Shown here piece after piece: positions 4,459-60,112 of a DNA stretch of 64,000 nucleotides. The DNA is taken from assembly GCA_963921265.3 (NCBI GenBank), contig OZ001196.2, forward strand, positions 1,407,441 through 1,471,440, in the 5' to 3' direction. Source of the DNA: Kordiimonas sp. (GTDB taxonomy: Bacteria > Pseudomonadota > Alphaproteobacteria > Sphingomonadales > Kordiimonadaceae). The notes beneath the pieces are model-generated. The model ran no database searches and was not told where the DNA came from. It was given only the letters and a program-made list of their open reading frames with translations. A program made the position numbers and the translations under genes. The number at the start of each line of letters is the position of its first letter. Within the stretch, counting starts at the first letter, position 1.

Positions 4459-4474
4459 GAAACGCCTATAAGGG

Positions 4475-4897: not shown

Positions 4898-5006
4898 GTT
4901 ATTTTCTGGACTGTGTGGTCTTGTGGTCTAATTTCCTTTGGCATGAGTTTCTGCCCCTGCGTGCCAATTGGGTGCGCATTCGGGCTCACTAAGGAGAGAG
5001 AGCGAC

Positions 5007-5966: not shown

Positions 5967-5979
5967 TTCAACCCATTTC

Positions 5980-6019
5980 AAAAAAAGGGATATTGCATAA
6001 CCGCAATGTCCCTTTTTTT
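5980..6019. terminator. Bidirectional rho-independent terminator
   Basis: A7 run, then stem GGGATATTGC (5987-5996) pairing with GCAATGTCCC (6003-6012) in 10 bp with one G-U, then a T7 run. It sits between convergent genes. Confidence 0.65.
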
Positions 6020-6057
6020 GTCTCTGAAGCCATGCCGAAAAGCTTACAGGGTAAGCA

Positions 6058-6846: not shown

Positions 6847-6961
6847 GGGTTCCCAACATACTTGCACGGGCGAAATACGCGCCCTTTCCAGGCGCTGGCG
6901 CCGTATATTCCGCCCTTTTAGCGACATTCTGCCGATCAGGAAAGAGACGAGTTAAAAATTG

Positions 6962-7903: not shown

Positions 7904-8042
7904 AAGCTCGTCAAATTATGGACAGTTATGCACAAAATCAACAGCACATAAACATCCACTATTGCTTGATCTATACTTGAGCGGCACAGCAGATTGATCT
8001 AATCACTGTTTTTTTATGCAAGGCACTGTTGATTAATAAAAG

Positions 8043-9759: not shown

Positions 9760-9904
9760 CCGCGCGATTAACGGCAAAACATATGTTTGGCCGACATACA
9801 TACTATTGAAAAATAGTCAGCGGAAACCGCCCAAAGTGTGGGATTTTTCAAAGGGTTAAGCCCCACCCGGTTTGCTGCGGCACAAAAAGCAGAAAGGAAC
9901 TGTG

Positions 9905-10279
9905 ATGTTCGCAGTTGTAAAAACTGGCGGTAAACAATACCGCGTTACCGAAGGCGATGTCCTGAAGGTTGAAAAACTGGACGCCGAAGTTGGTAAAAAA
10001 GTAAAGCTCGACGAAGTCCTGATGATTGGTGACGACAAGGGTGTTAAAGTAGGCGAGCCGCTCGTGAAAGGCGCGAATGTAACCGCTGAAGTTCTCGAGC
10101 AGAAAAAAGACAAGAAAATCACGGTCTTCAAAAAGAAGCGCCGTCACAACTACCGCCGTAAAAAAGGCCATCGCCAACAAATTACGGTCCTGCGTGTGAC
10201 GAAGATCGCTAAAACCGCAGCCAAGAAAGCACCTGCGAAGAAGGCCGCAACAGAAACCAAAGAAGCTGCAGCCGAATAA
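9905..10279 (+). CDS. rplU: 50S ribosomal protein L21 (with Lys/Ala-rich C-terminal tail)
   Basis: [14 protein letters not shown]... with SD AGAAAGGAA upstream. The tail is [23 protein letters not shown]. Confidence 0.95.
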
Positions 10280-10309
10280 GGCGCGGTACAGTATAAGGAG
10301 TAACCTCTC

Positions 10310-10561
10310 ATGGCTCACAAAAAAGCTGGTGGTAGTTCCCGTAACGGCCGCGACAGTATTGGTCGCCGCTTGGGTGTAAAAAAATTCGGCGGTGAGAATG
10401 TTCTTGCCGGCAACATCATTGTTCGTCAGCGTGGCACCAAATGGTACCCTGGCGAAAATGTTGGCATGGGCAAAGACCACACGCTGTTCGCGCTTGTGGA
10501 AGGCCAGGTTAAGTTTTCCAAAGGCAAAGGCGACCGTGCTTTTGTTTCTGTTGTAAACTAA
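10310..10561 (+). CDS. rpmA: 50S ribosomal protein L27
   Basis: [25 protein letters not shown]...[12 protein letters not shown] is the canonical L27 N-terminus. Confidence 0.95.
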
Positions 10562-10587
10562 GCCAACTAACAAACTGTTTCGAAGAA

Positions 10588-10613
10588 GGCGGGCCAAAAG
10601 GTCCGCCTTTTTT
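10588..10613 (+). terminator. Rho-independent terminator after rpmA
   Basis: GGCGGGCC-AAAA-GGTCCGCC stem-loop followed by TTTTTT. Confidence 0.7.
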
Positions 10614-10747
10614 ATTTGCTTTCAATAGTTTGTGCACTGTTAACACTTTATATACAATTTTATGGAGAAATATAGCCTGCATAGGTTTAGCAAGCTTGGG
10701 GCGTGCCTGGTGGTGCATTGGGGTCCACCGTACGCAAGGAGCTATTG

Positions 10748-19750: not shown

Positions 19751-20945
19751 GGTCACACTCTCGTTCCTTGTTTTGACGGCAGGCACCTTAATGGTGCCAG
19801 CACCGACACTTGCTCAAGAGTCGTCTGATGACGCAAAACAAAAACTGGAAGAGATTGAGGCCGAAATCGAGGCTAGCAGACGACAACAGGATATTCTTGA
19901 GCGTCAAAGCCGGCGCGCACGACAGCAAGCCGATGCTCTATCTGCTGATCTCATCGAAAGTGCGCGCACTGTCCAGTTGGCGGAGGGAAACATTTCACGA
20001 ATTGAAATTCGTATTCAGGACCTGGAGGTTGAAACCGAAGCCAAGCGTGATGAGCTGCTGTCCAACAACGAAAATATTGTGGAATTGATAGCTGCCATTG
20101 AGCGACTGTCAAAAAGGCCTGCGGTTCTAACATTGCTCAAACCGGATGATGCGCTAACAACAGCGAGATCAACTGGTCTCATGGCATCGCTGGTACCCCT
20201 GATTGACGAGCGAGCTGCCACCTTACGAACTGACCTGGAAATTCTGGCAAAAATTCAAACAGACTTGTCGAACGAGCGCTTTAGTCTGAAAAACGAATTG
20301 CAGGCCTTAACCAATAATCAAGATAGATTGGCTAATCTGCTTGAAGAACGGAGGGCGGAAGCCGGGCAGGCGAACCAACGTGCGCAGCAACTGGGACGTG
20401 AGTTAAGCGAGTTTGCCGACGAAGCCCGGTCTTTGCGTGAATTGATCGCGAAACTGGAACAGCAGGCCGCAAACCAGCGTGCTGTAGCGCCCAGGCGTGA
20501 TAGACCAGACGCAATTGAGCGGCCATTCAGCAGCCTGGGGCGAGCACTTGGCGAACTGAAGGGGCAATTGCCCTACCCGGCTGTTGGGCCAATTGTCCAA
20601 AGGTTTGGTGTGCAGGACGGTGCCACAACCGCAAAGGGTATTCGCATTCGTGCGCGGGACGGAGCACAAGTGATTTCACCCTATGATGGCAGCATCGTTT
20701 ATGCAGGTCCGTTCAGAAATTATGGTCTATTGTTGATCATCGACCATGGAGGCGGTTACCATAGTCTTCTGGCCGGATTTGAGACGCTTCAGAGCGCCGT
20801 CGGCCAATGGGTTTTGATGGGCGAGCCTGTCGGAACCATGCCAGATGTATCTGCAGAGGGCAGCTTGTATCTGGAACTTCGTCGAGGGGGTGAGGCGATC
20901 AATCCGTTACCCTGGTTGCAACGGCAATCAGCTGTGGCTCGGTGA
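19743..20945 (+). CDS. EnvC-like murein hydrolase activator (coiled coil plus M23/LytM domain)
   Basis: Long coiled coil followed by a LytM domain (GIRIRARDGAQVISPYDGSIVYAG..YG.LLIIDHGGGYHSLL). The start is uncertain. CTG 19743 has GAGGAA 7 nt upstream and would give a full signal peptide. The first canonical start is TTG 19773. Confidence 0.75.
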   Translation: MLKVTLSFLVLTAGTLMVPAPTLAQESSDDAKQKLEEIEAEIEASRRQQDILERQSRRARQQADALSADLIESARTVQLAEGNISRIEIRIQDLEVETEAKRDELLSNNENIVELIAAIERLSKRPAVLTLLKPDDALTTARSTGLMASLVPLIDERAATLRTDLEILAKIQTDLSNERFSLKNELQALTNNQDRLANLLEERRAEAGQANQRAQQLGRELSEFADEARSLRELIAKLEQQAANQRAVAPRRDRPDAIERPFSSLGRALGELKGQLPYPAVGPIVQRFGVQDGATTAKGIRIRARDGAQVISPYDGSIVYAGPFRNYGLLLIIDHGGGYHSLLAGFETLQSAVGQWVLMGEPVGTMPDVSAEGSLYLELRRGGEAINPLPWLQRQSAVAR

Positions 20946-20982
20946 ATGAGAGAGTTAGAAGTAAGTGATGAAAGGTATCCAC

Positions 20983-22314
20983 ATGCGAAATCTGATGACC
21001 GGTGCGATGATGGCTTTGATGATGTCTGCGCCAAGTGTTGCGGACAGCAGTTCAAAAGAAGCTGAGCTTTATAACCAGCTTGATACTTGGGCCAACATCC
21101 TTCGGCTGGTCAGCGAAAATTATGTGGATGAAGTGGATGAAAAAGAGCTGGTTGAAGCAGCCATTCAAGGCATGCTGCGCTCGCTTGACCCACACTCAAC
21201 GTATCTGAACCCCGATGTTTATCAACAGGTTAGGGTTCAAATGGAAGGCGAATACGGCGGCCTTGGCATCGAAGTTCAAATGGAAAACGGTGTTGTTAAG
21301 GTAGTGTCCCCGATTGACGAAACACCTGCTGCTAATGCCGGCATTCAGGGCGGCGACTTGATTACCCACATTGATGGCCAGGCCGTTATGGGTAAAACTT
21401 TGACCGAAGCCGTCAAGGAAATGCGCGGCCCCGTTGGATCAGATATCACCATAACTGTTGTGCGCGAAGACGCCGTAGAACCCTTTGAGGTCGCGATCAC
21501 ACGTGAAAAGATCCTGGTGCGCTCGGTTCGTCACCGCGTGGAAGACGAGACCATCGGATATATTCGCGTCACCACATTCAATATGCAGTCTGGCGCCGGT
21601 GTTGAAGACGCAATTGAAAGTATTGTTGAAGAACTTGGCGACAATCTCGATGGCGTTATTCTGGACCTGAGGAACAACCCAGGTGGTTTGCTTGACGAGG
21701 CGATTCGCATATCAGATGCCTTTTTGGACCAGGGGGAGATTGTTTCGACCCGCGGACGCATCCAAAATAATAACAGTCGCTGGTATGCAACCAGTGGTGA
21801 CATGCTGGACGGCGTGCCTGTCGTTGTTTTGACCAATGCTTACTCAGCATCTGCATCTGAAATTGTTGCGGGGGCCCTTCAGGACCATCGCCGGGCAATC
21901 GTTCTTGGTGACCGCACTTTTGGTAAGGGTACTGTGCAAAGTGAAATCCGTTTGGGCCGCACGGGCAATCAAGCCGTTCGCCTCACTACTGCTCGCTATT
22001 TTACACCAAGCGGAAAATCCATTCAGGAACGCGGCGTAGAGCCCGATATCGAGGTTCTGTTTCCTAATCAGCGCAAAGCCAGCGCACGCCGTGAAGCTGA
22101 CCTTCAGGGCCATATTAAAAACGATCAAATCAGCCTGGATAGGGCTGGCGAGATTGACGAACCCGTACTCGAAGAACTTGATCTTGAGGAGCCCGCAGAC
22201 CCAAATGCAACCCAGCCGGATGTGCAGCTGCGATATGCTATCAAGCTTTTGAAGAACATGTCGCGCCTGCCGCAAGCACATATTGCGGAAGCGCAGCAAA
22301 CCACCAGTCGCTGA
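20983..22314 (+). CDS. ctpA: Carboxy-terminal processing protease (S41 family)
   Basis: Signal peptide, then a PDZ domain (GGLGIEV...V..PI..TPA..AGIQ.GD.I..IDG), then S41 catalytic contexts (NPGG, SASASEI.AGALQD, FGKG.VQ). An alternative start is GTG 20965. Confidence 0.85.
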   Translation: MRNLMTGAMMALMMSAPSVADSSSKEAELYNQLDTWANILRLVSENYVDEVDEKELVEAAIQGMLRSLDPHSTYLNPDVYQQVRVQMEGEYGGLGIEVQMENGVVKVVSPIDETPAANAGIQGGDLITHIDGQAVMGKTLTEAVKEMRGPVGSDITITVVREDAVEPFEVAITREKILVRSVRHRVEDETIGYIRVTTFNMQSGAGVEDAIESIVEELGDNLDGVILDLRNNPGGLLDEAIRISDAFLDQGEIVSTRGRIQNNNSRWYATSGDMLDGVPVVVLTNAYSASASEIVAGALQDHRRAIVLGDRTFGKGTVQSEIRLGRTGNQAVRLTTARYFTPSGKSIQERGVEPDIEVLFPNQRKASARREADLQGHIKNDQISLDRAGEIDEPVLEELDLEEPADPNATQPDVQLRYAIKLLKNMSRLPQAHIAEAQQTTSR

Positions 22315-22395
22315 TTAGCTTTTGGCTGTTGATTGATTCTTAAGGAATTCATGCGTATTTTCCATGCGTTAGCACAGCAATTGGCTTGAGGGTTT

Positions 22396-23388
22396 ATGCC
22401 GACAACATTCAGATCACTGGCTATCGCGTGGGCAATTTGCCTGACCATAGTGCTGGGTGGCATCACCATCCTGGAAGCCACCTATGACCCAACCGCCAAT
22501 CAACCGACGGAAAACGCGGACCAGTTGGCCGGTGTGGATGCAAACGCAGGCCCATCTGCGCCTCCGTTCCGTCCAATTCCTGTTCAAGCTTCACCGGACT
22601 TCCTGGAAATAAGTGACCATGGGCCTTTGCCAATCGTAAGCAGCAGCGGCGAGAGATCTTCAGAATATTATGCCGCTACACCCATTATGGCACCGGAAGC
22701 CGCAAAAATTGCAATTATCGTGACTGATATGGGTATGCAGTCTCGCAGAACGCGTAGAGCGCTTGCGGAAATGCCAGACAATACAACTTTTGCCTTTTCA
22801 CCGTTTGGGCAGGGCAATAGCGGTTGGGCCGAGCAGGCGCGCCGTGACAATCATGAAGTCTTGCTGATGGTGCCAATGGAACCTGTTAATTATCCGCAAG
22901 ACGACCCAGGGGTGCTGACACTATTGGTTACCAACCCACCAGACCAAAACCTCCGCTGGCTCAGGGAGTCTCTCTCTAAGCTGACCGGCTATGTTGGCGT
23001 ATTGAGCCATAAAGGCTCTCGCTTCACGGCCGCCATAGACAGCATGCGCCCAATCATGCGGGAGCTGGCTGGACGTGGTGTCATGTATGTGGACAGTCAG
23101 GCAAGCCAATATACTGTGGGACCAGAACTTGCGGCCAATGCGGGCATACCATTCGCTGTTAACAGCCGAATCGGTTTTCTGGACGAAGAGCTGTCGGCTG
23201 CAGTGATTTCAGAGCGACTGGATGAATTGGAACGACAAGCCAAACGTACTGGCTCAGCTGTTGGTCTCATTCGCCCTCTGCCAGTATCGATGAACGCTGT
23301 TAGCATATGGGCAGGCGGCCTTGAAAGCCGAGGCGCCGTATTGGTGCCCATTTCCCAGGTGGCTGGCTTGCAAACGATCGAGCCCTAG
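22396..23388 (+). CDS. Divergent polysaccharide deacetylase family protein (YibQ-like)
   Basis: N-terminal TM, IAIIVTDMG...FAFSPF......A...HEVLLMVPMEP. Lies in the conserved gpmI-envC-(ctpA)-yibQ neighbourhood. Confidence 0.75.
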   Translation: MPTTFRSLAIAWAICLTIVLGGITILEATYDPTANQPTENADQLAGVDANAGPSAPPFRPIPVQASPDFLEISDHGPLPIVSSSGERSSEYYAATPIMAPEAAKIAIIVTDMGMQSRRTRRALAEMPDNTTFAFSPFGQGNSGWAEQARRDNHEVLLMVPMEPVNYPQDDPGVLTLLVTNPPDQNLRWLRESLSKLTGYVGVLSHKGSRFTAAIDSMRPIMRELAGRGVMYVDSQASQYTVGPELAANAGIPFAVNSRIGFLDEELSAAVISERLDELERQAKRTGSAVGLIRPLPVSMNAVSIWAGGLESRGAVLVPISQVAGLQTIEP

Positions 23389-32096: not shown

Positions 32097-32756
32097 ATGA
32101 TCCAAAGTGCTTTGGAGAAACTACACCAGGCCACAGAGTGGCCTGACACAGAAGGTGTGCCGCCATGGGATTATACGCTTGGCGGGCGTGGGCGAGAACT
32201 CGTTGACAAGGTGATCCATGAAGTGGAAGCCGGACTTTTGCTGGAGATCGGCTGCTTCCTGTGCGCGTCAACGCGCCGTTGGCTGTCACAGCATCCGAAG
32301 CTGAAAGTGATCGGTGTTGACCCCTGGGACGATGACCTCATTCGTCAGGTGGGACGCTATATCGGGCGCCCCAATCTGACGCGCAAATACCCGGAGCGCG
32401 CAACGCAGATGCGAATGCTGGCGGACATCACCAACAATAAACCTTTTCCAACCGCCATGGCCAATGTGATTGGCTTCAAAGATCGCTTCATCCCTTACCG
32501 TGGCTGGTCCCCAGAAGCGCTCAGGGAACTTAAGGACAGGGGCATTGAACCCGACGTCATCTATATCGACTGCGACAAAAAACCGGATGAGCTTGAGGTC
32601 AGCCATGAGCTTTGGCCGGGTGCACGTATTACAGGCGATGACTGGCACTGGAGCAGGACAAAGGGCTATCCGATGCGGCAGGTTGTCTATGCCTTCGCAG
32701 AGAAACATGGCTTTTCAGTTGAGGCTGAAGGGGCGACCTGGATTTTAAACCCCTAG
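32097..32756 (+). CDS. Hypothetical protein with degenerate class I methyltransferase-like fold
   Basis: 219 aa. LLLEIGCFLCAS (motif I position without the Gly-rich loop), VIGVDPW, DVIYIDCDK. The start lies 7 nt after the tal stop. Confidence 0.45.
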   Translation: MIQSALEKLHQATEWPDTEGVPPWDYTLGGRGRELVDKVIHEVEAGLLLEIGCFLCASTRRWLSQHPKLKVIGVDPWDDDLIRQVGRYIGRPNLTRKYPERATQMRMLADITNNKPFPTAMANVIGFKDRFIPYRGWSPEALRELKDRGIEPDVIYIDCDKKPDELEVSHELWPGARITGDDWHWSRTKGYPMRQVVYAFAEKHGFSVEAEGATWILNP

Positions 32757-43965: not shown

Positions 43966-45489
43966 TCAATCCGGTTGTGTCAAAATCGCTAGGTATCCCC
44001 TGATGCCATCAACATAATTACCCAGTCGCAGATTCTCGTTCGGGCTGTGCTGGTTGTTGTCAATGTACACTGCAGGCACAAGCAGAGCAGGCAGGCCCAG
44101 GCTTTTGACAAAAGGTGAGATGGGAATAGACCCCCCACCTGTCCGAATTTTAATCGGCTCTTCACCAAACGCACGCACCATAGCTCGCTCTGCCCATTCC
44201 CCTGCCGGTGAATTCAAAGGTGTTCTGAACGCACCGTAGGAAACCTCATAGTCAAAGGAAATAAGGCGATCATATGACTGTCGCTCATCTTCCGTTGGTT
44301 CCGATCCCGCAATTACATGGTAGCCCTGATCTTCGACATATCGTCGCACTAATCCCACCAGTCGCTCAGGATCGCTTTCGAGCACCAAACGGATATCAAG
44401 CTCAGCAGTCGCAGATGCTGGGATCGCGGTCCGAGTCTGAGTACCGACCCACCCACTTTCCAATCCAAGAACACTCATGCTCGGGTACTGGATCGATTCC
44501 TGATAAGTTGGCGCTACTGCATCGGGCGTTTTGAACCCGATAAACCGGCGGATGGCAGGCTCATCATCAGGCACACTGTTGATGACACTTTTCACTTCGT
44601 CGGTGAGTTTGATACCGTCATAAAATCCCGGGATGGTAACTCGCCCGTCAGCATCTTCCATACCCCCAACGAGCTGTGCCAGGCGAATTGCTGGATTAGG
44701 TGCATAATTGCCATAGGTGCCGCTATGCTGCGGCCGGCGCGGCCCAAATACTGTGAGTGAGATGGTCGCAATACCGCGCGCACCAAAAATAAGGGTTGGC
44801 CTGTTACTGGTATGGCGCGGCCCATCATAAATAAGCAACATATCTGCTTCGAGACGCTCTTTATGCCTCTCCACCGCAGCTGGTAGGTGCGGCGAACCAA
44901 GCTCTTCTTCAAAGTCCATAATGACTTTCAGGTTGTGGGTTTGGGTAAGGCCCTCCCGTTCAAGAATATCGAGCGCCGTCAAAAACATCGCGATAGGACC
45001 TTTAGCGTCAGACGCTGCCCGCGCGAAAACACGCCACTCAGGATCAACATTGCCTTCGAGATTGGTCCAGTCGATTTGAGCCCAAGCGTCACCGCGCCAT
45101 TCTTTCAGCACAGGCTTGTAGGGATCTTCCTGGTCCCATTTCGTCGGGTCCACTGGTTGCCCATCCACCTGAAGGTAAATCAGAACCGTTTTGCTCGCAC
45201 CCTCAACCGATCTTTCTGCGAGTAGAAGTGGCGGGCCACCGGTTTCCAACACCGTGGTTTCGAACGCTCGGCTAGCAAACGCATTTGTCATCCAGCTAAC
45301 ATTGGCTTCGATATGCTCTGGAAAATGGGCATCACTTGGCACTGAAAGTATGTCCCTCAAGATAGGGAAGGAACTGCTCAAGTGCTTTTCTGTTAATGCT
45401 TCGATGGCCTCGCCAGTTGGTGGCTGTTGCGCAACAACAGGTGCTGCCAACGAGCCCATGAGACCAAGACTTAGAATGATTTTTTTCAC
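43966..45489 (-). CDS. Secreted M20-family metallopeptidase (dipeptidase-like)
   Basis: GTG 45489 follows GGGGGAG. Signal peptide VKKIILSLGLMGSLAAPVVAQ. M20 motifs SDAKGP and DFEEELGS. The usual GHxD position reads YLQVDGQP. Confidence 0.8.
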   Translation of the reverse strand: MKKIILSLGLMGSLAAPVVAQQPPTGEAIEALTEKHLSSSFPILRDILSVPSDAHFPEHIEANVSWMTNAFASRAFETTVLETGGPPLLLAERSVEGASKTVLIYLQVDGQPVDPTKWDQEDPYKPVLKEWRGDAWAQIDWTNLEGNVDPEWRVFARAASDAKGPIAMFLTALDILEREGLTQTHNLKVIMDFEEELGSPHLPAAVERHKERLEADMLLIYDGPRHTSNRPTLIFGARGIATISLTVFGPRRPQHSGTYGNYAPNPAIRLAQLVGGMEDADGRVTIPGFYDGIKLTDEVKSVINSVPDDEPAIRRFIGFKTPDAVAPTYQESIQYPSMSVLGLESGWVGTQTRTAIPASATAELDIRLVLESDPERLVGLVRRYVEDQGYHVIAGSEPTEDERQSYDRLISFDYEVSYGAFRTPLNSPAGEWAERAMVRAFGEEPIKIRTGGGSIPISPFVKSLGLPALLVPAVYIDNNQHSPNENLRLGNYVDGIRGYLAILTQPD

Positions 45490-45593
45490 GATGCTCCCCC
45501 TTGATTGTCTACGGTTTTCCAGTTGTACGTTCATCAGGCAAAAGCGTCGATGAACGACATTGTAAACCGTTCTTCAATCGTGTTGAGCTGCTG

Positions 45594-46688
45594 TTATCGC
45601 TGTGTCAACCGCATTTCGATACGCCGGTTTCGGCTGTAGGCGAAAATATTATCCGCTGGATCAATTGGCTGGAATTCACCAAACCCGGCAGCTGCAAGAC
45701 GCTCCGGCGGAACGCCAGCTGAAATAAGGAAACGCACAACACTAATCGCCCGGGCGCTAGAGAGTTCCCAGTTACTGGCAAAGGTCGCTGTTGAAATGGG
45801 TCGCTTATCGGTATGGCCATCCACACGCAGTATCCATGGCAGTTCGCCCGGGATTTCTTGCGATATGGTGATTAGAGTTTCCGCGAATTTTCTAAGTTCG
45901 GCCCTGCCTTCAGGCCCAAGGTCCGATTGACCGCTTGCAAACAATAGTTCGCTTGCAAACACAAAACGGTCACCTTCAATGCGGATTTCGGGGCGGTTTG
46001 AAAGAACTTCTTTGAGCCTGCCGAAAAACTCCGACCGATAACCTGCCAGCTCTTCAACTTTGCTGGCTAGTGCGCGGTTTAGACGCCGCCCCATGTCAAC
46101 AATAACGGCTTGATTACGGCGGTCGCGTTCTTCACTGGCTTGTAGTGCAGCTTCTAGTCGGGAGAGTTGTTCCCTGAGAGCTGTTACGTTGCGCTCAAGC
46201 ACATTCACCTGCTCGCGTGCGCGCCGCGACAGTATCTGCTCTTCAGACAGCGCTTCAGAAGACGCTGCATATTGCGTTTCCAGCTCCGCCGCCCGCGCCT
46301 CAAGCGCGTCACGCGCTACTGTGATCTCGGCGAGGCTTGCCTCAGACGTCGTTAACTGCTGCCGCGCTGCGTCAAGGTCAGCTCCCAGCTGATCACGGTC
46401 GGCATTTGCTGCCGTGAGTGAGGCAGCGAGCTCCGTCATATTAGCCCGCAAGCTTTGGTTCGCCTGCTGCTCGAGCCGCAACAGGTTTCCTAGCTGTGCC
46501 ACCTGTCCCCGAAGTTCCGCCAGCGCTTGCTCGCGCCCGGACAAAGCTTGCCCGAGGAAAAACTGCGCAAGCACAAACATGGAAAGCAGAAAAATGATAA
46601 CCAACAGCAATGTCGAGAGCGCATCGACGAAGCCCGGCCAACTATTGTCCGGCGCGCCGCCGCCCATGCGTCTGCGTGCAGCGATCAT
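45594..46688 (-). CDS. MotB/OmpA-like peptidoglycan-binding stator-type subunit with ~165-aa periplasmic coiled coil
   Basis: N-terminal TM with Asp (WPGFVDALSTLLLVIIFLL), a long heptad-like region, then a C-terminal OmpA-like domain (GHTDKRPI, SNWELSSARA, NRRIEMRL). ATGA overlap with the upstream gene. Confidence 0.75.
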   Translation of the reverse strand: MIAARRRMGGGAPDNSWPGFVDALSTLLLVIIFLLSMFVLAQFFLGQALSGREQALAELRGQVAQLGNLLRLEQQANQSLRANMTELAASLTAANADRDQLGADLDAARQQLTTSEASLAEITVARDALEARAAELETQYAASSEALSEEQILSRRAREQVNVLERNVTALREQLSRLEAALQASEERDRRNQAVIVDMGRRLNRALASKVEELAGYRSEFFGRLKEVLSNRPEIRIEGDRFVFASELLFASGQSDLGPEGRAELRKFAETLITISQEIPGELPWILRVDGHTDKRPISTATFASNWELSSARAISVVRFLISAGVPPERLAAAGFGEFQPIDPADNIFAYSRNRRIEMRLTQR

Positions 46689-47887
46689 TACTGCGAGCCT
46701 CCGCCAGAGCCGCCAGAGCCGTCATTGCTTCGGTTAGCATCCAGCCCTGCAGAAATGGTACGTGCCAAAAGCTTAAGTTCACTACGCAGGTCTTCAGAGA
46801 GCGTTTCGCTGGCTTTCGCTTGTTCGTCGATCAAACGTTTTATGCCAACGTCCAGGTTGCGGATATGCCCCTTGGTTGTCTCATCCATCGCAGGCGCGGG
46901 GGCCGGTGTTTCGACTGCAGCCGCCTTTGCATGCGCTTCCGCCAACTGGGAAATGGACGCCGCCAAAGCCTTCTCACTGGCTTCATTCTTGGCCTGGTGC
47001 GCCGTTTGTACATCAAGCTTGTCAGCAAGTGATGTCAATGATTCTGCAATGGCCGTCATCGTATGCTGCGACTGCATACGAGCATCATCCGATTGCTTGA
47101 GCGTGCGTTGCAGCCGGTCAATGCCATCTGCAGTTTGTTCCATCAAGGCAGTCATATAGGAACTTGGACTGGCAACGCCCTCTGATACTTCACCGCGCGA
47201 CAGATGGGTCACTGATGCAAGCCAGTCTTCCACATCGTTATAGAAGCGGGTTTGAGATTGACTCGCCTGCAAATCCATAAAGCCCATTATCAAGCTGCCG
47301 GCCAGACCAAACAGCGAACTTGAGAACGCGGTGCCCATGCCGGAAAGAGGTGACTCGAGGCCCGCCTTGAGTTCGTCGAACATCAGCGCCATATCGCTGC
47401 CGTCGACCGACAAGCCATTGATCGTGCCACCAATGGCTCCAATGGTGCCAAGAAGGCCCCAGAAAGTGCCTAATAGACCGAGAAAAATGAGAAGCTGGGT
47501 AAAATACCGGCTGATTTCTCGGCTCTCCTCAAGCCGCGAAGCAATGCCATCAAGCACCGAGCGCATGGATAGTGTCGAAAGCCGCATGCTGCCTTCTTCC
47601 TGAGCAGACAGCAGAGCTGCAGCGGGCGCCATCAGGCGCGGGGTCACGGAAATGGCAGCGCTCTCGTGGCGTTTGAAAGCCTTAATCCATTCAATCTCTG
47701 GTTTGAGATCAATGACCCGGCGAAACGCGAATATGACGCCGATCAATAGTGTTACAGCGATTACGCCGTTTAAAACCACGTTCGCCATAAAGGCTGTCAA
47801 CAGTGGGCCGCGCAGCAATGCACCCAAAACTATTACTGCCGTTAAAAACAACAGCATGCGGTTCATGAACTTCTGCGGTTTCTGCAT
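46688..47887 (-). CDS. MotA/TolQ/ExbB-family proton-channel-like protein with ~185-aa helical C-terminal tail
   Basis: Four predicted TMs. The channel-type signatures are LLIFLGLLGTFWGLLGTIG and GMGTAFSSSLFGLAGSLIMGF. The tail is Ala/Gln/Glu-rich and ends in GSGGSGGGSQ. An alternative start is ATG 47866. Confidence 0.7.
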   Translation of the reverse strand: MQKPQKFMNRMLLFLTAVIVLGALLRGPLLTAFMANVVLNGVIAVTLLIGVIFAFRRVIDLKPEIEWIKAFKRHESAAISVTPRLMAPAAALLSAQEEGSMRLSTLSMRSVLDGIASRLEESREISRYFTQLLIFLGLLGTFWGLLGTIGAIGGTINGLSVDGSDMALMFDELKAGLESPLSGMGTAFSSSLFGLAGSLIMGFMDLQASQSQTRFYNDVEDWLASVTHLSRGEVSEGVASPSSYMTALMEQTADGIDRLQRTLKQSDDARMQSQHTMTAIAESLTSLADKLDVQTAHQAKNEASEKALAASISQLAEAHAKAAAVETPAPAPAMDETTKGHIRNLDVGIKRLIDEQAKASETLSEDLRSELKLLARTISAGLDANRSNDGSGGSGGGSQ

Positions 47888-48001
47888 CGCTTTCGGCCTT
47901 CCCCCAAGGTTGGCAGATCGTCGGTAAGAGCCGACAATCTCACTAGGCCTAGTTTAAGGGCGAAATTATGACACGCAACCAGAAGGTTAGAGGATTTTGG
48001 G

Positions 48002-48814
48002 CTAAGAGGCCTGCATGTTGCGGTGAACGCGCTTCAGCATCCGCTCGAGCGGTGCATGCAATCGGTCATTTGCAGCAATGATACTACCTGCTTCAAGCAC
48101 GTCCTGTCGGCCATTGAAATCGGTGACGTATCCGCCTGCTTCGCGCACAATGAGCGCGCCGGCGGCGACATCCCAAGCATTCAAGCCAGCTTCCCAAAAG
48201 CCGTCATAGCGGCCCGCAGCAACATAAGCGAGGTCAAGCGACGCCGCACCAAACCGGCGAATACCGGCAACTTGCGGTGCAATTTCAGTCATCTCAGCGA
48301 TGAAAGCTTCGTGCCCGTCGCGGCCCTTGAAGGGGATGTCTGTCGCCAGCAACGCTTCTTCAATTTTGGTGCGGCCGGAGACACGCAACCGGGTGTCGTT
48401 CAAAAACGCTCCCTGGCCTTTTTCTGCCCAATAAAGCTCATCCGTTAGCGGCGCATAAACAACACCCGCGGTTATTTCCTTACGCTCTTCAACTGCGATG
48501 CTGATGGCAAAATGCGGGATTCCATGCAGAAAATTTGTTGTGCCGTCGAGGGGGTCAATAATGAAGCGAACGTCATCGCGTTCGCCTGATATCGCACCAT
48601 TTTCTTCCATAAGAAAACCAAAGTCCGGGCGAGCGAATTTAAGCTCTTCAAACAGGATTTTCTCGGCGCGCTTGTCCGCAATCGATACAAAATCGGCAGG
48701 GCCTTTGCGGGAGACCTGCAACTGCTCAACTTCGCCGAAGTCACGACGCAGGCCACGGCTTGCCTTCATGGCAGCACTAACCATCACATTGATGAGGGGG
48801 GAACGACGGGCCAT
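48002..48814 (-). CDS. suhB: Inositol monophosphatase family protein
   Basis: FLMEE, IIDPLDGTTNF and WDVAAG motifs. 270 aa. Confidence 0.88.
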   Translation of the reverse strand: MARRSPLINVMVSAAMKASRGLRRDFGEVEQLQVSRKGPADFVSIADKRAEKILFEELKFARPDFGFLMEENGAISGERDDVRFIIDPLDGTTNFLHGIPHFAISIAVEERKEITAGVVYAPLTDELYWAEKGQGAFLNDTRLRVSGRTKIEEALLATDIPFKGRDGHEAFIAEMTEIAPQVAGIRRFGAASLDLAYVAAGRYDGFWEAGLNAWDVAAGALIVREAGGYVTDFNGRQDVLEAGSIIAANDRLHAPLERMLKRVHRNMQAS

Positions 48815-48855
48815 GGGCCTCTCCTAAATGCTAACTCGAAACTCGGATTTTTGGC

Positions 48856-49422
48856 TTAGCCTTCGGCGCGGCCAGCATACTCGCGCTCGGCCGTAGAAAC
48901 GATGATCTTGTCGCCCTGGTTCACAAAGGGTGGCACGCCAACACGCAGCCCGTTTTCAAGGGTTGCTGGCTTATAGCTTGAAGAAGCGGTTTGTCCCTTA
49001 ACAACTGGCTCAGTCTCCGTGACTTCCAGCGTTACTTTTTCAGGCAGGCTGACACCAAGCGGGCTTTCTTCATGAAACTCGATGCGGACCATCATGCCGT
49101 CTTGAAGAAAGACGGTATCGTCACCGATGTCCTCAGCAGCAATAGAAATTTGCTCGTACGTCTGCTGATCCATGAAGTGCGCCATATCATCATCCATATA
49201 GAGATATTGATAATCTTTTTGCTCGAGGCGCGCGCGCTCCACTTTTTCTGACGAGCGGAAGCGTTCATTGAGCTTGGAGCCATCACGCAGGTTTTTAAGC
49301 TCCACCTGCAGATATGCACCGCGCTTGCCTGGTTGGGTATGGGCAATCTTCACAGCGCGCCATAGGCCGCCTTTATGCTCAATTACGTTGCCCGGACGGA
49401 TAGCATTGCCGTCAATTTTCAT
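48856..49422 (-). CDS. efp: Translation elongation factor P
   Basis: ATG 49422: [37 protein letters not shown]. 188 aa. Confidence 0.95.
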
Positions 49423-49686
49423 GGGACACCTCTTGGGATCTAAATCAGTCAAAGAACAATTTGGGCGCGATGTATCAGATTTAAGGAGCCTATGCAACGG
49501 CGTTGGCTAGCCAGCAGGCATGACATGGTTGCATAACCGGAGTTTTTACGTTGTTTCATTTTTTCGAACGCAGACATCGAAAATGAACAATTTTCACACG
49601 AATTTGCAAACGCTATCTACAAGCCACGCAACAACGCAAGGCCGTGTAGGCCCTGATAAAGCCTTTTTTTGGCATGGAGATAGAAA

Positions 49687-59331: not shown

Positions 59332-59584
59332 GAGGGACCATCTTGAATAATAGGTTAGCTGGAGTTCCCGACTAAAAGTGCCTCTACATGGCTGGGAACA
59401 GCGCTTTAGTCAACCATTGAACCCAATCCAGATTATGAAAGCGGTTATTTTTCTTGAGTACTGGAAATTGCACAATTGACCTTGTTCGAGCAAACGCCCT
59501 ATCCTCAACGTGTAAACGCGGGTCATCAGGTGTGGTAGGCGCCTGATCGCGGTTGCTCCGAACAGCGAATACCGGGGATTGCTG

Positions 59585-60112
59585 ATGACCGATAAGAACA
59601 ATTCAAATACACTAGAGGATGCAAGAGCGCGACTCGAAGCCGCGCTATCTAGCCTTTCGCAGGAAGTTGCAGCCTACAAAGGTGCGCTTGCTCAATCTCG
59701 AGAAGCCCAGGAAAAAACTATTCAGGAAATGTCAGCTCAGGCCGACCGCTTGTTGACTTTGGAGCAAGAAAATCATCGGCTTCACGAACAGATAGCGGCG
59801 CTGTCACTGCAAGAATCTTCAGATGACAACGGCGATAAAATTGCTTCAATTGAAGCCGAAAAAAACGCCTTGCAACAAAACTACGATTTACTGAAGCGCC
59901 AATACACCAGCCTTCAAGACGAATTCGAAGGGCTGCAGAACCAGATGGGTGACACTTTACCCACTGATAACGAGAGTGACCCAGCCCTTCAGCAGCAATT
60001 GGACGAATTGCTTCGGGAACGAGCTGAGTTAAAATCGGAACTGAACGAAGTTATCGCGGAATTAGAGAGCTACAATTCAGAAGCACAACCTGCAGCAGGG
60101 GGAATGACCTAA
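59585..60112 (+). CDS. Coiled-coil protein upstream of zapA (DUF4164 / ZauP-ZapB-like)
   Basis: 175 aa and almost entirely heptad-like (LEQENHRLHEQIAAL, LQQNYDLLKRQYTSLQDEFEGLQ). Its stop overlaps the zapA start. Confidence 0.65.
   Translation: MTDKNNSNTLEDARARLEAALSSLSQEVAAYKGALAQSREAQEKTIQEMSAQADRLLTLEQENHRLHEQIAALSLQESSDDNGDKIASIEAEKNALQQNYDLLKRQYTSLQDEFEGLQNQMGDTLPTDNESDPALQQQLDELLRERAELKSELNEVIAELESYNSEAQPAAGGMT

What the first reader, a model, noticed from the sequence alone, without database searches (positions are those of the whole stretch)
45594..47887. Orphan stator-like proton-channel pair with long extensions on both subunits that fits no characterised motor class
Two minus-strand genes are translationally coupled by an ATGA overlap at 46688. 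Subunit A is 399 aa. It has two N-terminal TM helices, an ~80-aa loop, and TM3/TM4 with MotA/TolQ/ExbB-type channel signatures (LLIFLGLLGTFWGLLGTIG; GMGTAFSSSLFGLAGSLIMGF). It then has a ~185-aa Ala/Gln/Glu-rich helical tail ending in GSGGSGGGSQ, which is encoded by a 9-bp tandem repeat at 46702-46719. Subunit B is 364 aa. It has a short basic N-terminus and one TM with the MotB/ExbD-style aspartate at its cytoplasmic edge (WPGFVDALSTLLLVIIFLL). This is followed by ~165 aa of heptad-like coiled coil and then an OmpA/MotB-type peptidoglycan-binding domain (GHTDKRPI...SNWELSSARA...NRRIEMRL). There are no fli/flg/flh, Tol-Pal or TonB genes anywhere in the 64 kb. The channel helices appear to lack the prolines typical of flagellar MotA TM3/TM4. 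An A subunit with a long cytoplasmic tail recalls ZorA of the Zorya anti-phage systems, but no ZorC/ZorD-like partner is present and here the B subunit also carries a periplasm-spanning coiled coil. Two signal-peptide hydrolases (M20 peptidase, SxxK serine hydrolase) follow on the same strand after a 104-bp gap that contains a GTTCATC/GATGAAC hairpin (45529-45555). This suggests a possible PMF-powered envelope module.
Basis: partly seen in the sequence, partly recalled or inferred. Interest (0 to 1): 0.72.

Follow-up and report, generated by a model that had tools for sequence, protein, structure and literature searches.

The report
Conserved non-flagellar MotAB-like motor pair
These two overlapping genes encode a membrane ion-channel "motor" pair related to the flagellar, Tol/Ton and Zorya motors. 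The pair is not an orphan: it belongs to a large family inherited across alphaproteobacteria, usually mislabelled "flagellar MotA/MotB", and nobody yet knows what it does.

Summary
Window 46688-47887(-) encodes a 399-aa four-TM MotA/TolQ/ExbB/ZorA-fold protein with a 195-aa helical cytoplasmic tail. Window 45594-46688(-) encodes a 364-aa protein with one TM carrying an invariant Asp, a roughly 180-aa Pro-free helix and a MotB-type OmpA domain. The gene junction is TAATG (1-nt overlap), not ATGA.

The pair is not an orphan. The family has at least 2400 clusters at 50% identity and occurs in at least 595 species, almost all alphaproteobacteria. A and B are adjacent in 80/80 loci, usually downstream of efp-suhB. 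B passes NCBIfam NF006543 (PRK09039). Sinorhizobium meliloti carries an orthologous pair. The "motA/motB" genes studied in non-flagellated Komagataeibacter hansenii belong to this family. There, overexpression elongates cells, GFP fusions are polar and knock-outs are viable.

The pair fails the membership tests for flagellar MotAB, TolQR/ExbBD and Zorya. The two downstream hydrolases co-occur in only 2/65 loci, so they are not part of the module.

Best reading: a distinct, housekeeping 5:2-type PMF motor, anchored to peptidoglycan through B, whose output is the conserved A tail. The partner and physiological role are unknown; weak evidence points to envelope, division or pole functions. It is a new variant of a known kind, of moderate interest.

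The parts
46688..47887 (-). Subunit A gene (399 aa): four-TM protein of the MotA/TolQ/ExbB/ZorA fold with a cytoplasmic helical tail
   Evidence: ORF. Pfam MotA_ExbB is weak (E 0.006, below the cutoff). PADLOC ZorA1 E 7e-14. AF2 pLDDT 76. Foldseek top hits are TolQ, ExbB and ZorA with probability 1.0. More than 8000 homologues.
47723..47857 (-). A residues 11-55: N-terminal TM1-TM2 hairpin
   Evidence: Kyte-Doolittle peaks at 12-30 and 37-55, with a basic N-terminus. Helices H4-24, H26-35 and H37-59 in the AF2 model.
47276..47503 (-). A residues 129-204: channel helices TM3/TM4 with an acidic periplasmic loop. Contains the invariant GLLGT141FWG and MGTAFSSSLFGLAGS motifs
   Evidence: Invariant columns L136, G137, G140, T141, G144, L145, P180, M184, F188, G194 and L195 in a 35-sequence alignment at 33-48% identity. 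This is the only stretch that hhalign aligns to E. coli ExbB and TolQ.
46691..47275 (-). A residues 205-399: cytoplasmic tail of three helical segments, with motifs conserved across the family (RFYNxxEDWL, PxYxxALxEQTA, HxRNxD, LRxExKLLxRTI)
   Evidence: AF2 helices H166-232, H241-323 and H336-387. Motif conservation. Retained end to end in the Acetobacter homologue.
46701..46721 (.). 9-bp tandem repeat (2.3 copies) encoding part of the non-conserved GSGGSGG C-terminus of A
   Evidence: TRF, 100% matches. The C-terminus is variable in homologues.
46686..46690 (-). TAATG junction: A's stop codon TAA overlaps B's ATG by 1 nt (translational coupling). A GGAGG lies 9 nt upstream of the ATG
   Evidence: Sequence. 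A and B are adjacent on the same strand in 80/80 loci, and the spacing is short (about -4 to +53 nt) in most of them.
45594..46688 (-). Subunit B gene (364 aa): short basic N-terminus, one TM with Asp22, a long helix and a MotB-type OmpA domain. Member of NCBIfam NF006543 (PRK09039)
   Evidence: NF006543 scores 443.7 bits against a 305-bit cutoff, full length. AF2 pLDDT 81.
46623..46625 (-). Codon for B Asp22 (GAT) in the WPGFVDAL motif, the presumed proton-accepting residue
   Evidence: Sequence. D22 is invariant in A3. The WPG[FYW]VDAL motif is present in 74/74 family members from the loci.
46002..46553 (-). B residues 46-229: Pro-free A/L/R/E/Q-rich periplasmic helix (coiled coil)
   Evidence: AF2 gives a single helix from 20 to 229, with pLDDT up to 95. 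Pfam hits are to coiled-coil families only. Composition. Linker length varies from 151 to 462 aa across the family.
45597..45989 (-). B residues 234-364: OmpA/MotB-type peptidoglycan-binding domain
   Evidence: PF00691, E 5e-16. The closest solved relatives are flagellar MotS, MotB and PomB (E 1e-22 to 1e-18), ahead of Pal, OmpA and ZorB. hhalign to E. coli MotB gives 96.5% probability.
47888..48001 (-). suhB-A intergenic region, with a GGGGGAAGG Shine-Dalgarno-like element before A's ATG. No convincing sigma-70 site was found on this strand
48002..49497 (-). Conserved synteny context, not shown to be functionally linked: suhB (inositol monophosphatase, 48002-48814) and efp (48856-49497) upstream on the same strand
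   Evidence: Pfam. SuhB is upstream in 45/60 informative loci and EF-P in 44/60.

Best explanation
The two genes form a translationally coupled operon. They encode a distinct family of the MotAB/TolQR/ExbBD/ZorAB superfamily of ion-driven 5:2 membrane motors. The family spans the alphaproteobacteria.

Shown:
- A has the TolQ/ExbB/ZorA fold with the invariant GLLGTxWG channel motif.
- B has one TM with an invariant Asp and a MotB-type peptidoglycan-binding domain.
- The two genes are always adjacent, co-diverge with each other, and co-diverge with their housekeeping neighbours.
- The family occurs in genomes that also have canonical flagellar stators and Tol-Pal (S. meliloti).
- It also occurs in a bacterium reported to have no flagella (K. 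hansenii).

Inferred mechanism:
- Five A subunits surround a B dimer.
- The B dimer is fixed to the cell wall through its OmpA domains, which sit at the end of a long parallel coiled coil of variable length acting as a tether.
- Proton flow through A TM3/TM4 and B Asp22 drives A to rotate around B.
- This movement is delivered to the cytoplasm by the conserved helical tail of about 190 aa. The tail's conserved C-terminal motifs (HxRNxD, LRxExKLLxRTI) engage a partner that is encoded elsewhere.

The physiological role is a chromosomal housekeeping one. It is most likely tied to the cell envelope, cell division or the cell pole. It is not swimming, Tol/Ton transport or phage defence.
For: Architecture and fold:
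-.
- Invariant T141 with the GLLGTxWG motif, and invariant B Asp.

Family size and taxonomy:
- More than 8000 homologues, capped.
- 2400 clusters at 50% identity with E <= 1e-3, of which 509 have E <= 1e-30.

Gene order and inheritance:
- A and B adjacent in 80/80 loci, with no third conserved gene.
- efp-suhB upstream in 44-45 of 60 informative loci.
- Identity of A correlates with identity of SuhB (r = 0.77) and of B (r = 0.85).
- No compositional anomaly around the genes.
- No true plasmid copies. The only PLSDB hits are chromosomes mislabelled as plasmids.

Co-existence with canonical systems:
- The S. meliloti chromosome carries suhB-A-B. That species has a separate, essential TolQ/Pal (PMC7327166).
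- The presence of flagellar motABC in S. meliloti is from established knowledge, not tested here.

Experimental hints:
- K. hansenii 'motA/motB' belong to this family. WP_086640501, their 63%-identical BLAST hit, is P0537. It matches window A at E 1e-64 end to end.
- The authors report no flagellar genes in that organism.
- Overexpression doubles cell length or causes filamentation.
- GFP fusions are polar.
- Disruption mutants are viable (PMC6570709, PMC6315621, PMC7347698).
Against: - No complex was modelled or observed, so the 5:2 stoichiometry and rotation are extrapolated from solved relatives.
- Pfam MotA_ExbB is below its cutoff (16.7 against 22.9 bits).
- Profile searches of A against PDB sequences find no motor protein among the 60 best matches listed.
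- hhalign to ExbB and TolQ covers only 21-24 columns.
- The K. hansenii phenotypes come from overexpression and low-resolution assays. They could be indirect effects of membrane-protein overload.
- Nothing identifies a partner for the tail.
- A coiled coil whose length varies three-fold has no obvious role in a stator.
- The efp-suhB synteny may be purely historical.
Confidence: 0.55

Rival explanations
1. It is a flagellar stator, either an alternative or auxiliary MotAB or the organism's only one. This is what most database names say ('flagellar motor protein MotA', 'chemotaxis protein MotB').
For: - Source names.
- Four-TM, N-in topology like MotA.
- B's OmpA domain is closest to solved MotS, MotB and PomB domains (E 1e-22).
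- Polar localisation in K. hansenii.
- The window encodes an MCP, so the organism is probably chemotactic and motile.
Against: - No NCBIfam MotA model matches A at E <= 0.1.
- B scores far below the MotB, MotD and MotS cutoffs (for example 105.9 against 283 bits, and 61.5 against 301).
- hhalign of A to E. coli MotA gives 9.5% probability.
- The TM2-TM3 cytoplasmic loop is only about 73 aa. MotA needs a large torque-generating domain (PMC12505986).
- The pair is never seen in a flagellar cluster in the 80 loci. Instead it lies beside efp-suhB.
- It is retained and highly conserved in Komagataeibacter, which the authors report as non-flagellated.
- It is present in S. meliloti alongside that species' own flagellar stator genes (plus established knowledge).
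Confidence: 0.08
2. It is a Zorya-like anti-phage sensor. A ZorAB-type motor detects envelope perturbation and signals through the A tail to effectors encoded elsewhere.
For: - The best sequence matches of A are ZorA models: PADLOC ZorA1 E 7e-14 and ZorA3 8e-10, and NCBIfam ZorA_4 8e-6.
- ZorA chains are among the Foldseek hits.
- The combination of a cytoplasmic helical tail and a PG-binding B subunit is the Zorya layout (PMC11946911).
Against: - NCBIfam ZorA_4 scores 25 bits against a cutoff of 500.
- No ZorC, D, E, F or G-like gene, nor any other conserved third gene, is found in the 80 loci or near the pair in the window.
- The tail is about 195 aa, against about 500 aa (70 nm) in ZorA.
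- ZorB has its PG-binding domain fused to the TM without a linker. Here 151-462 aa of coiled coil intervene.
- The conserved core-genome position, the co-divergence with SuhB and the absence from real plasmids are the opposite of a defence-island pattern.
Confidence: 0.04
3. It is a Tol/Ton-like trans-envelope force transducer. The B coiled coil does the job of TolA or TonB and works together with the two downstream periplasmic hydrolases as a PMF-powered envelope module.
For: - B combines a TolR/MotB-like TM-Asp, a TolA-domain-II-like long helix and a Pal-like OmpA domain.
- Overexpression causes filamentation or chaining, as reported for TolQR overexpression.
- A ChvI (envelope-stress regulator) binding fragment was mapped inside SMc03993, the inferred S. 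meliloti A gene (PMC3687685).
Against: - The hydrolases follow B in only 2/65 loci. They are separated from it by a promoter-like site and a structured spacer.
- The OmpA domain binds the wall, not an outer-membrane target. This makes B an anchor rather than a transducer.
- The coil length varies from 151 to 462 aa (about 22 to 69 nm if extended), which is incompatible with spanning a fixed periplasm.
- Tol-Pal is present separately in S. meliloti.
- No TolA, TonB, TolB or Pal-like neighbour is found.
- A role in the envelope without the hydrolases overlaps with the best explanation.
Confidence: 0.12
4. It is a degenerate, non-motor remnant. B acts only as an inner-membrane-to-peptidoglycan tether or periplasmic coiled-coil scaffold, and A is a passive membrane partner.
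For: - A has only weak sequence similarity to active motors.
- The variable-length coiled coil looks more like a scaffold than a machine part.
- K. hansenii knock-outs are viable.
Against: - The residues that matter for ion transit are the most conserved in both proteins. These are B Asp22, in 74/74 sequences, and A T141 with its glycine motif, invariant at 33-48% identity.
- The A tail also keeps specific motifs across the family.
- This pattern indicates selection on the channel and on an output element.
Confidence: 0.06

Closest known systems
Komagataeibacter hansenii 'MotA/MotB' (Jacek et al. 2018, 2019; PMC6315621, PMC6570709)
   Same: Same family. Their MotA is 63% identical to WP_086640501 (P0537), which aligns end to end with window A (36% identity, E 1e-64). 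It shares the four-TM A subunit, the one-TM B subunit with a C-terminal OmpA domain, and adjacent genes.
   Different: The K. hansenii proteins are shorter (348 and 321 aa), with a deletion of about 40 aa in the tail. The neighbouring genes differ in Acetobacteraceae. The work was aimed at cellulose material properties, so no mechanism, stoichiometry or partner was determined.
ZorA/ZorB of Zorya anti-phage systems (PMC11946911)
   Same: ZorA is the nearest sequence relative of A (PADLOC ZorA1 E 7e-14, covering TM3, TM4 and the start of the tail). Both have a 5:2-motor fold, a cytoplasmic alpha-helical tail on A, and a PG-binding domain with a TM Asp on B.
   Different: This family has four TMs rather than three. 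Its tail is about 195 aa in three segments, against about 500 aa continuous in ZorA. No beta-hairpin/Ca2+ membrane-proximal domain is predicted. B has a 151-462 aa coiled coil where ZorB has none. There are no ZorC/D effectors. The family is in the core genome and vertically inherited, not in a defence island.
Flagellar stators MotA/MotB, PomA/PomB and MotP/MotS
   Same: Both have a four-TM, N-in/C-in A subunit. B has an N-terminal TM with Asp and a C-terminal OmpA-like domain. The B domain is most similar to solved MotS, MotB and PomB domains. The genes are adjacent and overlapping.
   Different: This family has no large TM2-TM3 cytoplasmic torque-generating domain. TM3 and TM4 lack the MotA prolines. 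A has a long C-terminal tail. B has a coiled coil instead of a plug and flexible linker. The pair is not in flagellar clusters, and it is present in a non-flagellated genus.
TolQ/TolR(-TolA-Pal) and ExbB/ExbD(-TonB)
   Same: These are the best structural matches of A (Foldseek E about 1e-3, TM-score normalised to the target up to 0.6). They share the GLxGTxWG TM motif. B conceptually merges a TolR-like TM-Asp, a TolA-like long helix and a Pal-like OmpA domain.
   Different: This family has an extra N-terminal TM. The only sequence similarity is to a motif of about 22 residues. B does not have the TolR/ExbD periplasmic fold. No TolA or TonB partner is encoded nearby. Tol-Pal co-exists separately in S. 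meliloti.
GldL/GldM (Bacteroidota gliding/T9SS motor)
   Same: This is a 5:2 motor in which the inner 'B-like' dimer carries a long periplasmic extension and the A-like subunit has a functionally important cytoplasmic C-terminal region.
   Different: No sequence or domain relationship was detected here. GldM ends in outer-membrane-facing domains, not a PG-binding OmpA domain. The resemblance comes from established knowledge only and was not tested.

Membership tests
MotA/TolQ/ExbB/ZorA superfamily (5:2 ion-driven motors), A subunit | Pfam PF01618 MotA_ExbB match above the gathering score | tested here: not met
   16.7 bits against a cutoff of 22.9, E 0.006, residues 97-154 only.
MotA/TolQ/ExbB/ZorA superfamily (5:2 ion-driven motors), A subunit | Fold of the TM and membrane-proximal helices matches solved A subunits | tested here: met
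   The Foldseek PDB hits listed are all TolQ, ExbB or ZorA chains. Probability is 1.0 for nearly all of them, E from 7e-4, TM-score normalised to the target 0.31-0.61.
MotA/TolQ/ExbB/ZorA superfamily (5:2 ion-driven motors), A subunit | Conserved channel-helix motif with a polar Thr (GLxGTxxG; ExbB T148 / TolQ T145 equivalent) | tested here: met
   GLLGT141FWG is invariant in the family alignment. It is the segment that hhalign aligns to ExbB and TolQ. The residue equivalence was read from the motif by eye.
MotB/TolR/ExbD/ZorB-type B subunit | Single N-terminal TM helix with a conserved Asp near its cytoplasmic end, encoded immediately after A | tested here: met
   Asp22 in WPGFVDAL, present in 74/74 sequences. 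Adjacent in 80/80 loci.
5:2 ion-driven motor | A5B2 stoichiometry and PMF-dependent rotation | not testable with these tools
   No multimer prediction was available. Testing needs AF-multimer or cryo-EM, and mutant or uncoupler experiments.
NCBIfam NF006543 / PRK09039 'peptidoglycan -binding protein' | Full-length match above the curated cutoff | tested here: met
   443.7 bits against a cutoff of 305, residues 4-364 aligned to model positions 4-350 of 350.
Flagellar stator MotAB/PomAB | Match to curated MotA and MotB equivalog models | tested here: not met
   A has no MotA model hit at E <= 0.1. B scores below the cutoffs and over the OmpA part only: MotD 105.9 against 283, MotS 85.5 against 264, MotB 61.5 against 301.
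Flagellar stator MotAB/PomAB | Large cytoplasmic TM2-TM3 domain (torque-generating interface) on A | tested here: not met
   The loop is about 73 aa with low-confidence short helices. hhalign to E. coli MotA gives 9.5% probability. The criterion is from PMC12505986.
Flagellar stator MotAB/PomAB | Genomic or phyletic association with flagella | tested here: not met
   No flagellar genes in the window or in the conserved neighbourhoods. The family is present in K. hansenii, which the authors report as non-flagellated.
Flagellar stator MotAB/PomAB | Plug helix and flexible linker after the B TM | tested here: inconclusive
   AF2 gives one continuous helix from 20 to 229, with a conserved S50-G51-R52 just outside the membrane. 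A monomer model cannot show a plug.
Zorya (ZorAB plus effectors) | ZorA family model above the cutoff | tested here: not met
   NCBIfam ZorA_4 scores 25 bits against 500, and ZorA_2 17 against 100. PADLOC ZorA1 gives only a partial match (E 7e-14, residues 122-310).
Zorya (ZorAB plus effectors) | Adjacent ZorC/ZorD (type I), ZorE (type II) or ZorF/ZorG (type III) | tested here: not met
   The neighbours are M20, a beta-lactamase-fold protein, SuhB and EF-P. No conserved third gene is found in 80 loci.
Zorya (ZorAB plus effectors) | ZorB PG-binding domain fused to the TM without a linker, and a very long continuous ZorA tail | tested here: not met
   The linker is 151-462 aa. The tail is 195 aa with two breaks. 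The criteria are from PMC11946911.
Tol-Pal / Ton motors (TolQR, ExbBD) | Match to TolQ/ExbB and TolR/ExbD models, and a TolA/TonB partner | tested here: not met
   No NCBIfam TolQ, ExbB, TolR or ExbD hit. hhalign to ExbB gives 61% probability and to TolQ 46%, over 21-24 columns. hhalign of B to TolR and ExbD gives less than 2%. No TolA or TonB-like neighbour is present.
Komagataeibacter-type 'MotAB' (Jacek et al.) | Orthology of A to the protein studied | tested here: met
   WP_086640501, named in their Table 1 (63% identity to K. hansenii MotA), is P0537 in the cluster of P0346. BLASTP against window A gives E 1e-64 over the full length. The K. hansenii sequence itself was not available.

The most novel reading that the evidence does not exclude
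This family would be a further functional class of 5:2 ion-driven rotary motors, beside flagellar, Ton, Tol, gliding/T9SS, Sii and Zorya. It would be a housekeeping, alphaproteobacteria-wide motor whose rotor carries a conserved cytoplasmic output tail. Its stator is tied to the wall by a long coiled coil of variable length. It would couple the proton gradient to a process at the pole, division site or envelope that is still unknown. It might also be the vertically inherited kind of motor from which the mobile ZorAB sensors were recruited.
Probability: 0.3. Interest if true: 0.8.

Novelty: new variant of a known kind. Interest (0 to 1): 0.55.

Why it matters
Only a handful of jobs are known for 5:2 ion-driven motors: flagellar rotation, TonB and TolA energisation, gliding/T9SS, SiiAB and Zorya. 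This family has a different architecture, with long extensions on both subunits. It sits in the core genome of at least several hundred alphaproteobacterial species, including symbionts, acetic-acid bacteria and marine groups. It is routinely mis-annotated as flagellar MotA/MotB.

Working out its partner and role could reveal a new use of the proton gradient in cell-envelope or cell-pole biology, in a class that includes Caulobacter, Brucella, Agrobacterium and rhizobia. It could also show where Zorya's sensor module came from.

The immediate practical value is an annotation correction. These genes should not be counted as evidence of flagellar motility.

Tried and rejected
1. Link to the two downstream hydrolases. 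Rejected: they co-occur in 2/65 loci.
2. A third conserved component. All-against-all clustering of ORFs in 80 loci found only A, B, EF-P/SuhB, ThiE, a convergent ABC exporter and Hsp20. The 947-bp A-B gap in L028 is an IS5-like transposase insertion.
3. S. meliloti Rgs polar-growth proteins. RgsD is unrelated. RgsF (SMc03995, Sel1/TPR) lies two genes upstream of the S. meliloti pair, but it is absent from the other 80 loci and from the window. This gives no general link.
4. PDB sequence searches with two family profiles of A. Only coiled-coil noise was returned.
5. Pfam PF24161, which is listed for many B homologues in precomputed data. It was not reproducible with the local Pfam copy and was left unexplained.
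6. Literature searches for PRK09039, ZorAB-like, stator-like, MotAB-like, and MotA/TolQ/ExbB in alphaproteobacteria (plus look-ups). Apart from the Komagataeibacter work and one ChvI-screen table entry, nothing deals with this family.
7. The hairpin after B as a conserved terminator. It is significant in this sequence (z = -4.06) but not conserved in the 90%-identical relative, and it has no proper T-tract.
8. Plasmid or defence-island origin. No true plasmid hits and no compositional anomaly.
9. A phylogeny including ZorA, AglR and GldL was not attempted. Those sequences could not be fetched, and similarity to TolQ, ExbB and MotA is limited to about 22 columns.

Full report
**1. The observation**

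ORF listing and the reverse-strand sequence confirm two minus-strand genes.

- A lies at 46688-47887 and encodes 399 aa.
- B lies at 45594-46688 and encodes 364 aa.

The junction reads cagTAATGAtc. A ends with TAA (46690-46688) and B begins with ATG (46688-46686). This is a 1-nt TAATG overlap, not an ATGA overlap. A GGAGG lies 9 nt upstream of B's ATG.

TRF confirms a perfect 9-bp repeat of 2.3 copies at 46701-46721. It encodes part of the GSGGSGG end of A. That end is not conserved in homologues.

Hydropathy and charge analysis give A four TM segments with both termini inside.

- The TM segments are at about residues 12-30, 37-55, 132-150 and 184-204. The last is Ser/Gly-rich.
- The cytoplasmic loop is about 73 aa.
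- The periplasmic loop is acidic.
- The cytoplasmic tail is 195 aa.

TM3 and TM4 contain no proline.

B has one strongly hydrophobic segment, preceded by WPGFVD22AL.

Pfam gives A only a sub-threshold MotA_ExbB match (16.7 against 22.9 bits). It gives B a clear OmpA domain (E 5e-16) plus a set of coiled-coil families.

Pfam scans of the larger ORFs across the 64 kb show an ordinary chromosomal core.

- The genes include obg, proBA, nadD, gpmI, an M23 peptidase, CtpA, four ATP synthase subunit genes, priA, purKE, TrcR, efp, suhB, thiE, fba, pgk, gap and tkt.
- One NIT-domain chemoreceptor is present.
- No flagellar, Tol-Pal, Ton or Zor partner genes were found.

**2. What the proteins look like**

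AF2 with a 59-sequence alignment models A as all-helical (pLDDT 76).

- Two long helices, 105-159 and 166-232, run through TM3 and TM4.
- Two tail helices follow, 241-323 and 336-387.
- They are separated by low-confidence Gly/Pro-containing breaks.

The Foldseek hits against the PDB are all TolQ, ExbB and ZorA chains. Probability is 1.0 for nearly all of them, E starts at about 7e-4, and the TM-score normalised to the target reaches about 0.6. No flagellar MotA appears among the listed hits.

AF2 models B (pLDDT 81) as one uninterrupted helix from residue 20 to 229, followed by an OmpA fold. This helix would be about 27 nm if straight. That figure is my arithmetic from about 0.15 nm per residue.

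**3. Which known family is closest**

| Query | Comparison | Result |
|---|---|---|
| A | PADLOC ZorA1 | E 7e-14, residues 122-310 |
| A | PADLOC ZorA3 | E 8e-10 |
| A | NCBIfam ZorA_4 | 25 bits against a cutoff of 500 |
| A | NCBIfam MotA, TolQ and ExbB models | no match at E <= 0.1 |
| A (diverse family profile) | hhalign, E. coli ExbB | 61% probability, 21-24 columns |
| A (diverse family profile) | hhalign, E. coli TolQ | 46% probability, 21-24 columns |
| A (diverse family profile) | hhalign, E. coli MotA | 9.5% probability |
| A (two family profiles) | PDB sequence searches | coiled-coil noise only |
| B (full length) | NCBIfam NF006543 (PRK09039.1-2, 'peptidoglycan -binding protein') | 443.7 bits against a cutoff of 305 |
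| B | NCBIfam MotD, MotS and MotB models | OmpA part only, far below cutoff |
| B OmpA domain | solved flagellar MotS, MotB and PomB domains | E 1e-22 to 1e-18 |
| B OmpA domain | solved OmpA/Pal-type domains and ZorB | about 1e-11 down to 5e-6 |

The hhalign matches of A to ExbB and TolQ cover only the GLLGTxWG motif.

The pair is therefore a mosaic in resemblance.

- The A channel is ExbB/TolQ/ZorA-like.
- The A topology is MotA-like.
- The B anchor is MotB-like.

It passes no curated test for the flagellar, Tol/Ton or Zorya families.

**4. It is not an orphan**

The closest are from Kordiimonas and Kordiimonadaceae. The exhaustive representative search found 2400 clusters at 50% identity with E <= 1e-3, of which 509 have E <= 1e-30.

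The 80 best loci are Kordiimonadales, Rhodospirillales, Acetobacterales, Kiloniellales, Azospirillum and Hyphomicrobiales. A few MAGs carry implausible labels.

Findings in those loci:

- B follows A on the same strand in 80/80.
- SuhB lies upstream in 45/60 informative loci and EF-P in 44/60.
- A convergent ABC exporter lies downstream in 15/65.
- The M20 and beta-lactamase-fold genes occur in only 2/65.
- No other conserved neighbour exists.
- The one large A-B gap examined holds an IS5-like transposase.
- Identity of A tracks that of SuhB (r = 0.77) and of B (r = 0.85).
- Base composition around the genes is unremarkable.
- The only 'plasmid' hits are chromosomes mislabelled as plasmids.

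This is the pattern of an old, vertically inherited core-genome operon. It is not the pattern of a mobile defence island.

**5. Conservation inside the family**

At 33-48% identity, the invariant positions of A are concentrated in TM3 and TM4: L136, G137, G140, T141, G144, L145, P180, M184, F188, G194 and L195.

The tail keeps specific motifs: RFYNxxEDWL directly after TM4, PxYxxALxEQTA, HxRNxD, and a C-terminal LRxExKLLxRTI.

A's length is tightly constrained, at roughly 350-450 aa in the loci.

In B, the WPG[FYW]VDAL motif is present in 74/74 sequences. The segment between the TM and the OmpA domain varies from 151 to 462 residues. It is always a Pro-free A/R/E/L-rich coiled coil. A three-fold range in length argues against a rigid spacer matched to the width of the periplasm.

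**6. Links to studied organisms**

*S. meliloti.* A mislabelled S. meliloti chromosome shows the following gene order:

- thiE
- a Sel1-repeat gene
- suhB
- B (342 aa, 'peptidoglycan -binding protein')
- a convergent ABC exporter

The Sel1 protein is RgsF (SMc03995), an essential polar-growth factor (PMC7327166). It is not found near the pair in other lineages.

By gene order, the S. meliloti 1021 orthologues should be SMc03993 and SMc03992. This is an inference and was not verified. The only literature mention found is a ChvI-binding fragment inside SMc03993 (PMC3687685).

S. meliloti has a separate, essential TolQ/Pal (same paper). From established knowledge it also has its own flagellar motA/motB/motC. 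So the pair is not a displaced canonical stator or Tol motor.

*K. hansenii.* Jacek et al. studied 'motA' (348 aa) and 'motB' (321 aa) of Komagataeibacter hansenii, which they report as lacking flagellar genes.

The orthology chain is as follows.

- Their Table 1 lists WP_086640501 as 63% identical to K. hansenii MotA.
- That accession is P0537, in the 90% cluster of P0346.
- P0346 hit window A at E 6.7e-63.
- P0537 aligns with window A end to end at 36% identity, E 1e-64, including the C-terminal motif.
- In Acetobacter the A gene is again followed directly by an OmpA/coiled-coil B gene.

Reported phenotypes:

- Overexpression roughly doubles cell length or gives filaments or chains.
- Overexpression increases colony spreading and loosens the cellulose network.
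- MotA-GFP and MotB-GFP are polar.
- motA, motB and motAB disruptions are viable and give denser cellulose.

They are low-resolution data, but they are the only experiments on the family that I could find.

**7. How it most likely works**

*Shown.* The pair has the fold and motifs of a 5:2-type channel. It has an invariant proton-accepting Asp and a MotB-type wall anchor. The two genes are strictly co-inherited. The family is independent of flagella, Tol/Ton and Zorya.

*Inferred by analogy with solved relatives (PMC11946911, PMC9389320).*

- An A5B2 complex forms.
- The B dimer is fixed to peptidoglycan.
- Proton flow makes the A ring turn.
- The conserved tails turn with the ring and act on a cytoplasmic or inner-membrane partner encoded elsewhere.
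- The variable coiled coil is best seen as a tether that sets reach rather than distance.

*Physiological role.* The role is unknown. The core-genome position, the polar localisation and cell-length effects in K. hansenii, and the possible ChvI link point weakly to envelope, division or pole functions.

*Confidence.*

| Reading | Confidence |
|---|---|
| Family assignment and 'not flagellar, not Tol/Ton, not Zorya' | about 0.85 |
| Motor mechanism as described | about 0.55 |
| Any specific physiological role | at most 0.3 |
| Rival: flagellar stator | 0.08 |
| Rival: Zorya-like defence | 0.04 |
| Rival: Tol-like module with the hydrolases | 0.12 |
| Rival: non-motor tether | 0.06 |

The evidence for and against each rival is listed with that rival.

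**8. Novelty and verdict**

The window's genes are an ordinary member of a family that already exists in databases. B has a curated model. A is usually named 'flagellar motor protein MotA' or 'hypothetical'. Family members have been manipulated in one genus.

What is not known is the family's mechanism, partner or role. Recent surveys of 5:2 motors that I read do not describe it (PMC12505986, PMC12204202, PMC9389320).

I rate it a new variant of a known kind, with moderate interest (0.55). Its 'orphan' label and its hydrolase link were not.

Noticed in passing
window 45485-45600 (-): The spacer between B and the M20 peptidase gene folds into an extended imperfect hairpin of -37.1 kcal/mol (z = -4.06, no shuffle out of 200 as stable). 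A sigma-70-like site (TCAACA-16-TACAAT, 45586-45559) lies just after B's stop codon. The sequence is not conserved in the closest relative, L001.
   Followed up: partly
window 45489-45534 (-): The M20 peptidase ORF is listed from the ATG at 45534. A GTG at about 45489, preceded by AAGGGGGAG, gives a clean signal peptide (VKKIILSLGLMGSLAAPVVAQQ) and is the more likely start.
   Followed up: partly
L028 7158-8027 (-): An IS5-like DDE transposase (289 aa) is inserted between A and B in one Rhodospirillales MAG. It splits the otherwise tightly coupled pair.
   Followed up: partly
L081 (S. meliloti CP090106.1) 3430-8069: In S. meliloti the Sel1/TPR protein RgsF (SMc03995, an essential polar-growth factor) occupies the position that efp holds in other lineages, two genes upstream of the A-B pair. 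A ChvI-binding fragment was reported inside SMc03993, the inferred A gene. The record is a chromosome mislabelled as plasmid pSymB in PLSDB.
   Followed up: partly
loci L001-L080, B genes: The coiled-coil segment of B varies from 151 to 462 residues between species. It reaches 644-aa proteins in Neoroseomonas and Falsiroseomonas-like loci. A stays within about 350-450 aa. No explanation was found for this asymmetry.
   Followed up: partly
L085/L086 (Acetobacter) 4967-5968 and 8224-9291: In Acetobacter the pair has different neighbours. An unannotated protein of 333-341 aa with no Pfam hit lies directly upstream on the same strand. A TraB/PrgY/GumN-family gene lies downstream.
   Followed up: no
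window 33217-53597 compared with L081: Long-range gene order (purK-purE ... TrcR/DUF1465 ... ABC exporter, B, A, suhB ... thiE) is shared between this Kordiimonas-like window and S. meliloti. This indicates a very old conserved chromosomal neighbourhood.
   Followed up: partly
window 10703-12913 (+): A methyl-accepting chemotaxis protein with a NIT (nitrate/nitrite-sensing) periplasmic domain and a HAMP domain. The organism is therefore probably chemotactic and motile, with its real flagellar genes outside the window.
   Followed up: no
window 19773-23388 (+): A cluster of an M23 peptidase (EnvC-like), an S41 C-terminal processing protease with PDZ (CtpA-like) and a divergent polysaccharide deacetylase. 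It is an envelope-remodelling trio, about 22 kb from the pair and unrelated to it.
   Followed up: no
window 3723-4448 (-), 9848-10597 (-), 32097-32756 (+), 59579-60112 (+): Four ORFs of 177-249 aa have no Pfam match at E <= 1e-6. They were not examined further, and some may not be genes.
   Followed up: no
one search hit table (B homologues): Many B homologues carry a precomputed Pfam PF24161 annotation. The local Pfam scan did not reproduce it for the window protein or for P0132, and the identity of that family was not established.
   Followed up: partly
L004, L017, L043, L056: MAGs labelled Gammaproteobacteria, Mycobacteriaceae, Patescibacteria and 'beta proteobacterium' carry typical alphaproteobacterial versions of the pair. 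L004 and L043 (partly) also have the alphaproteobacterial upstream suhB/efp synteny. This suggests mis-binning or mislabelling.
   Followed up: no
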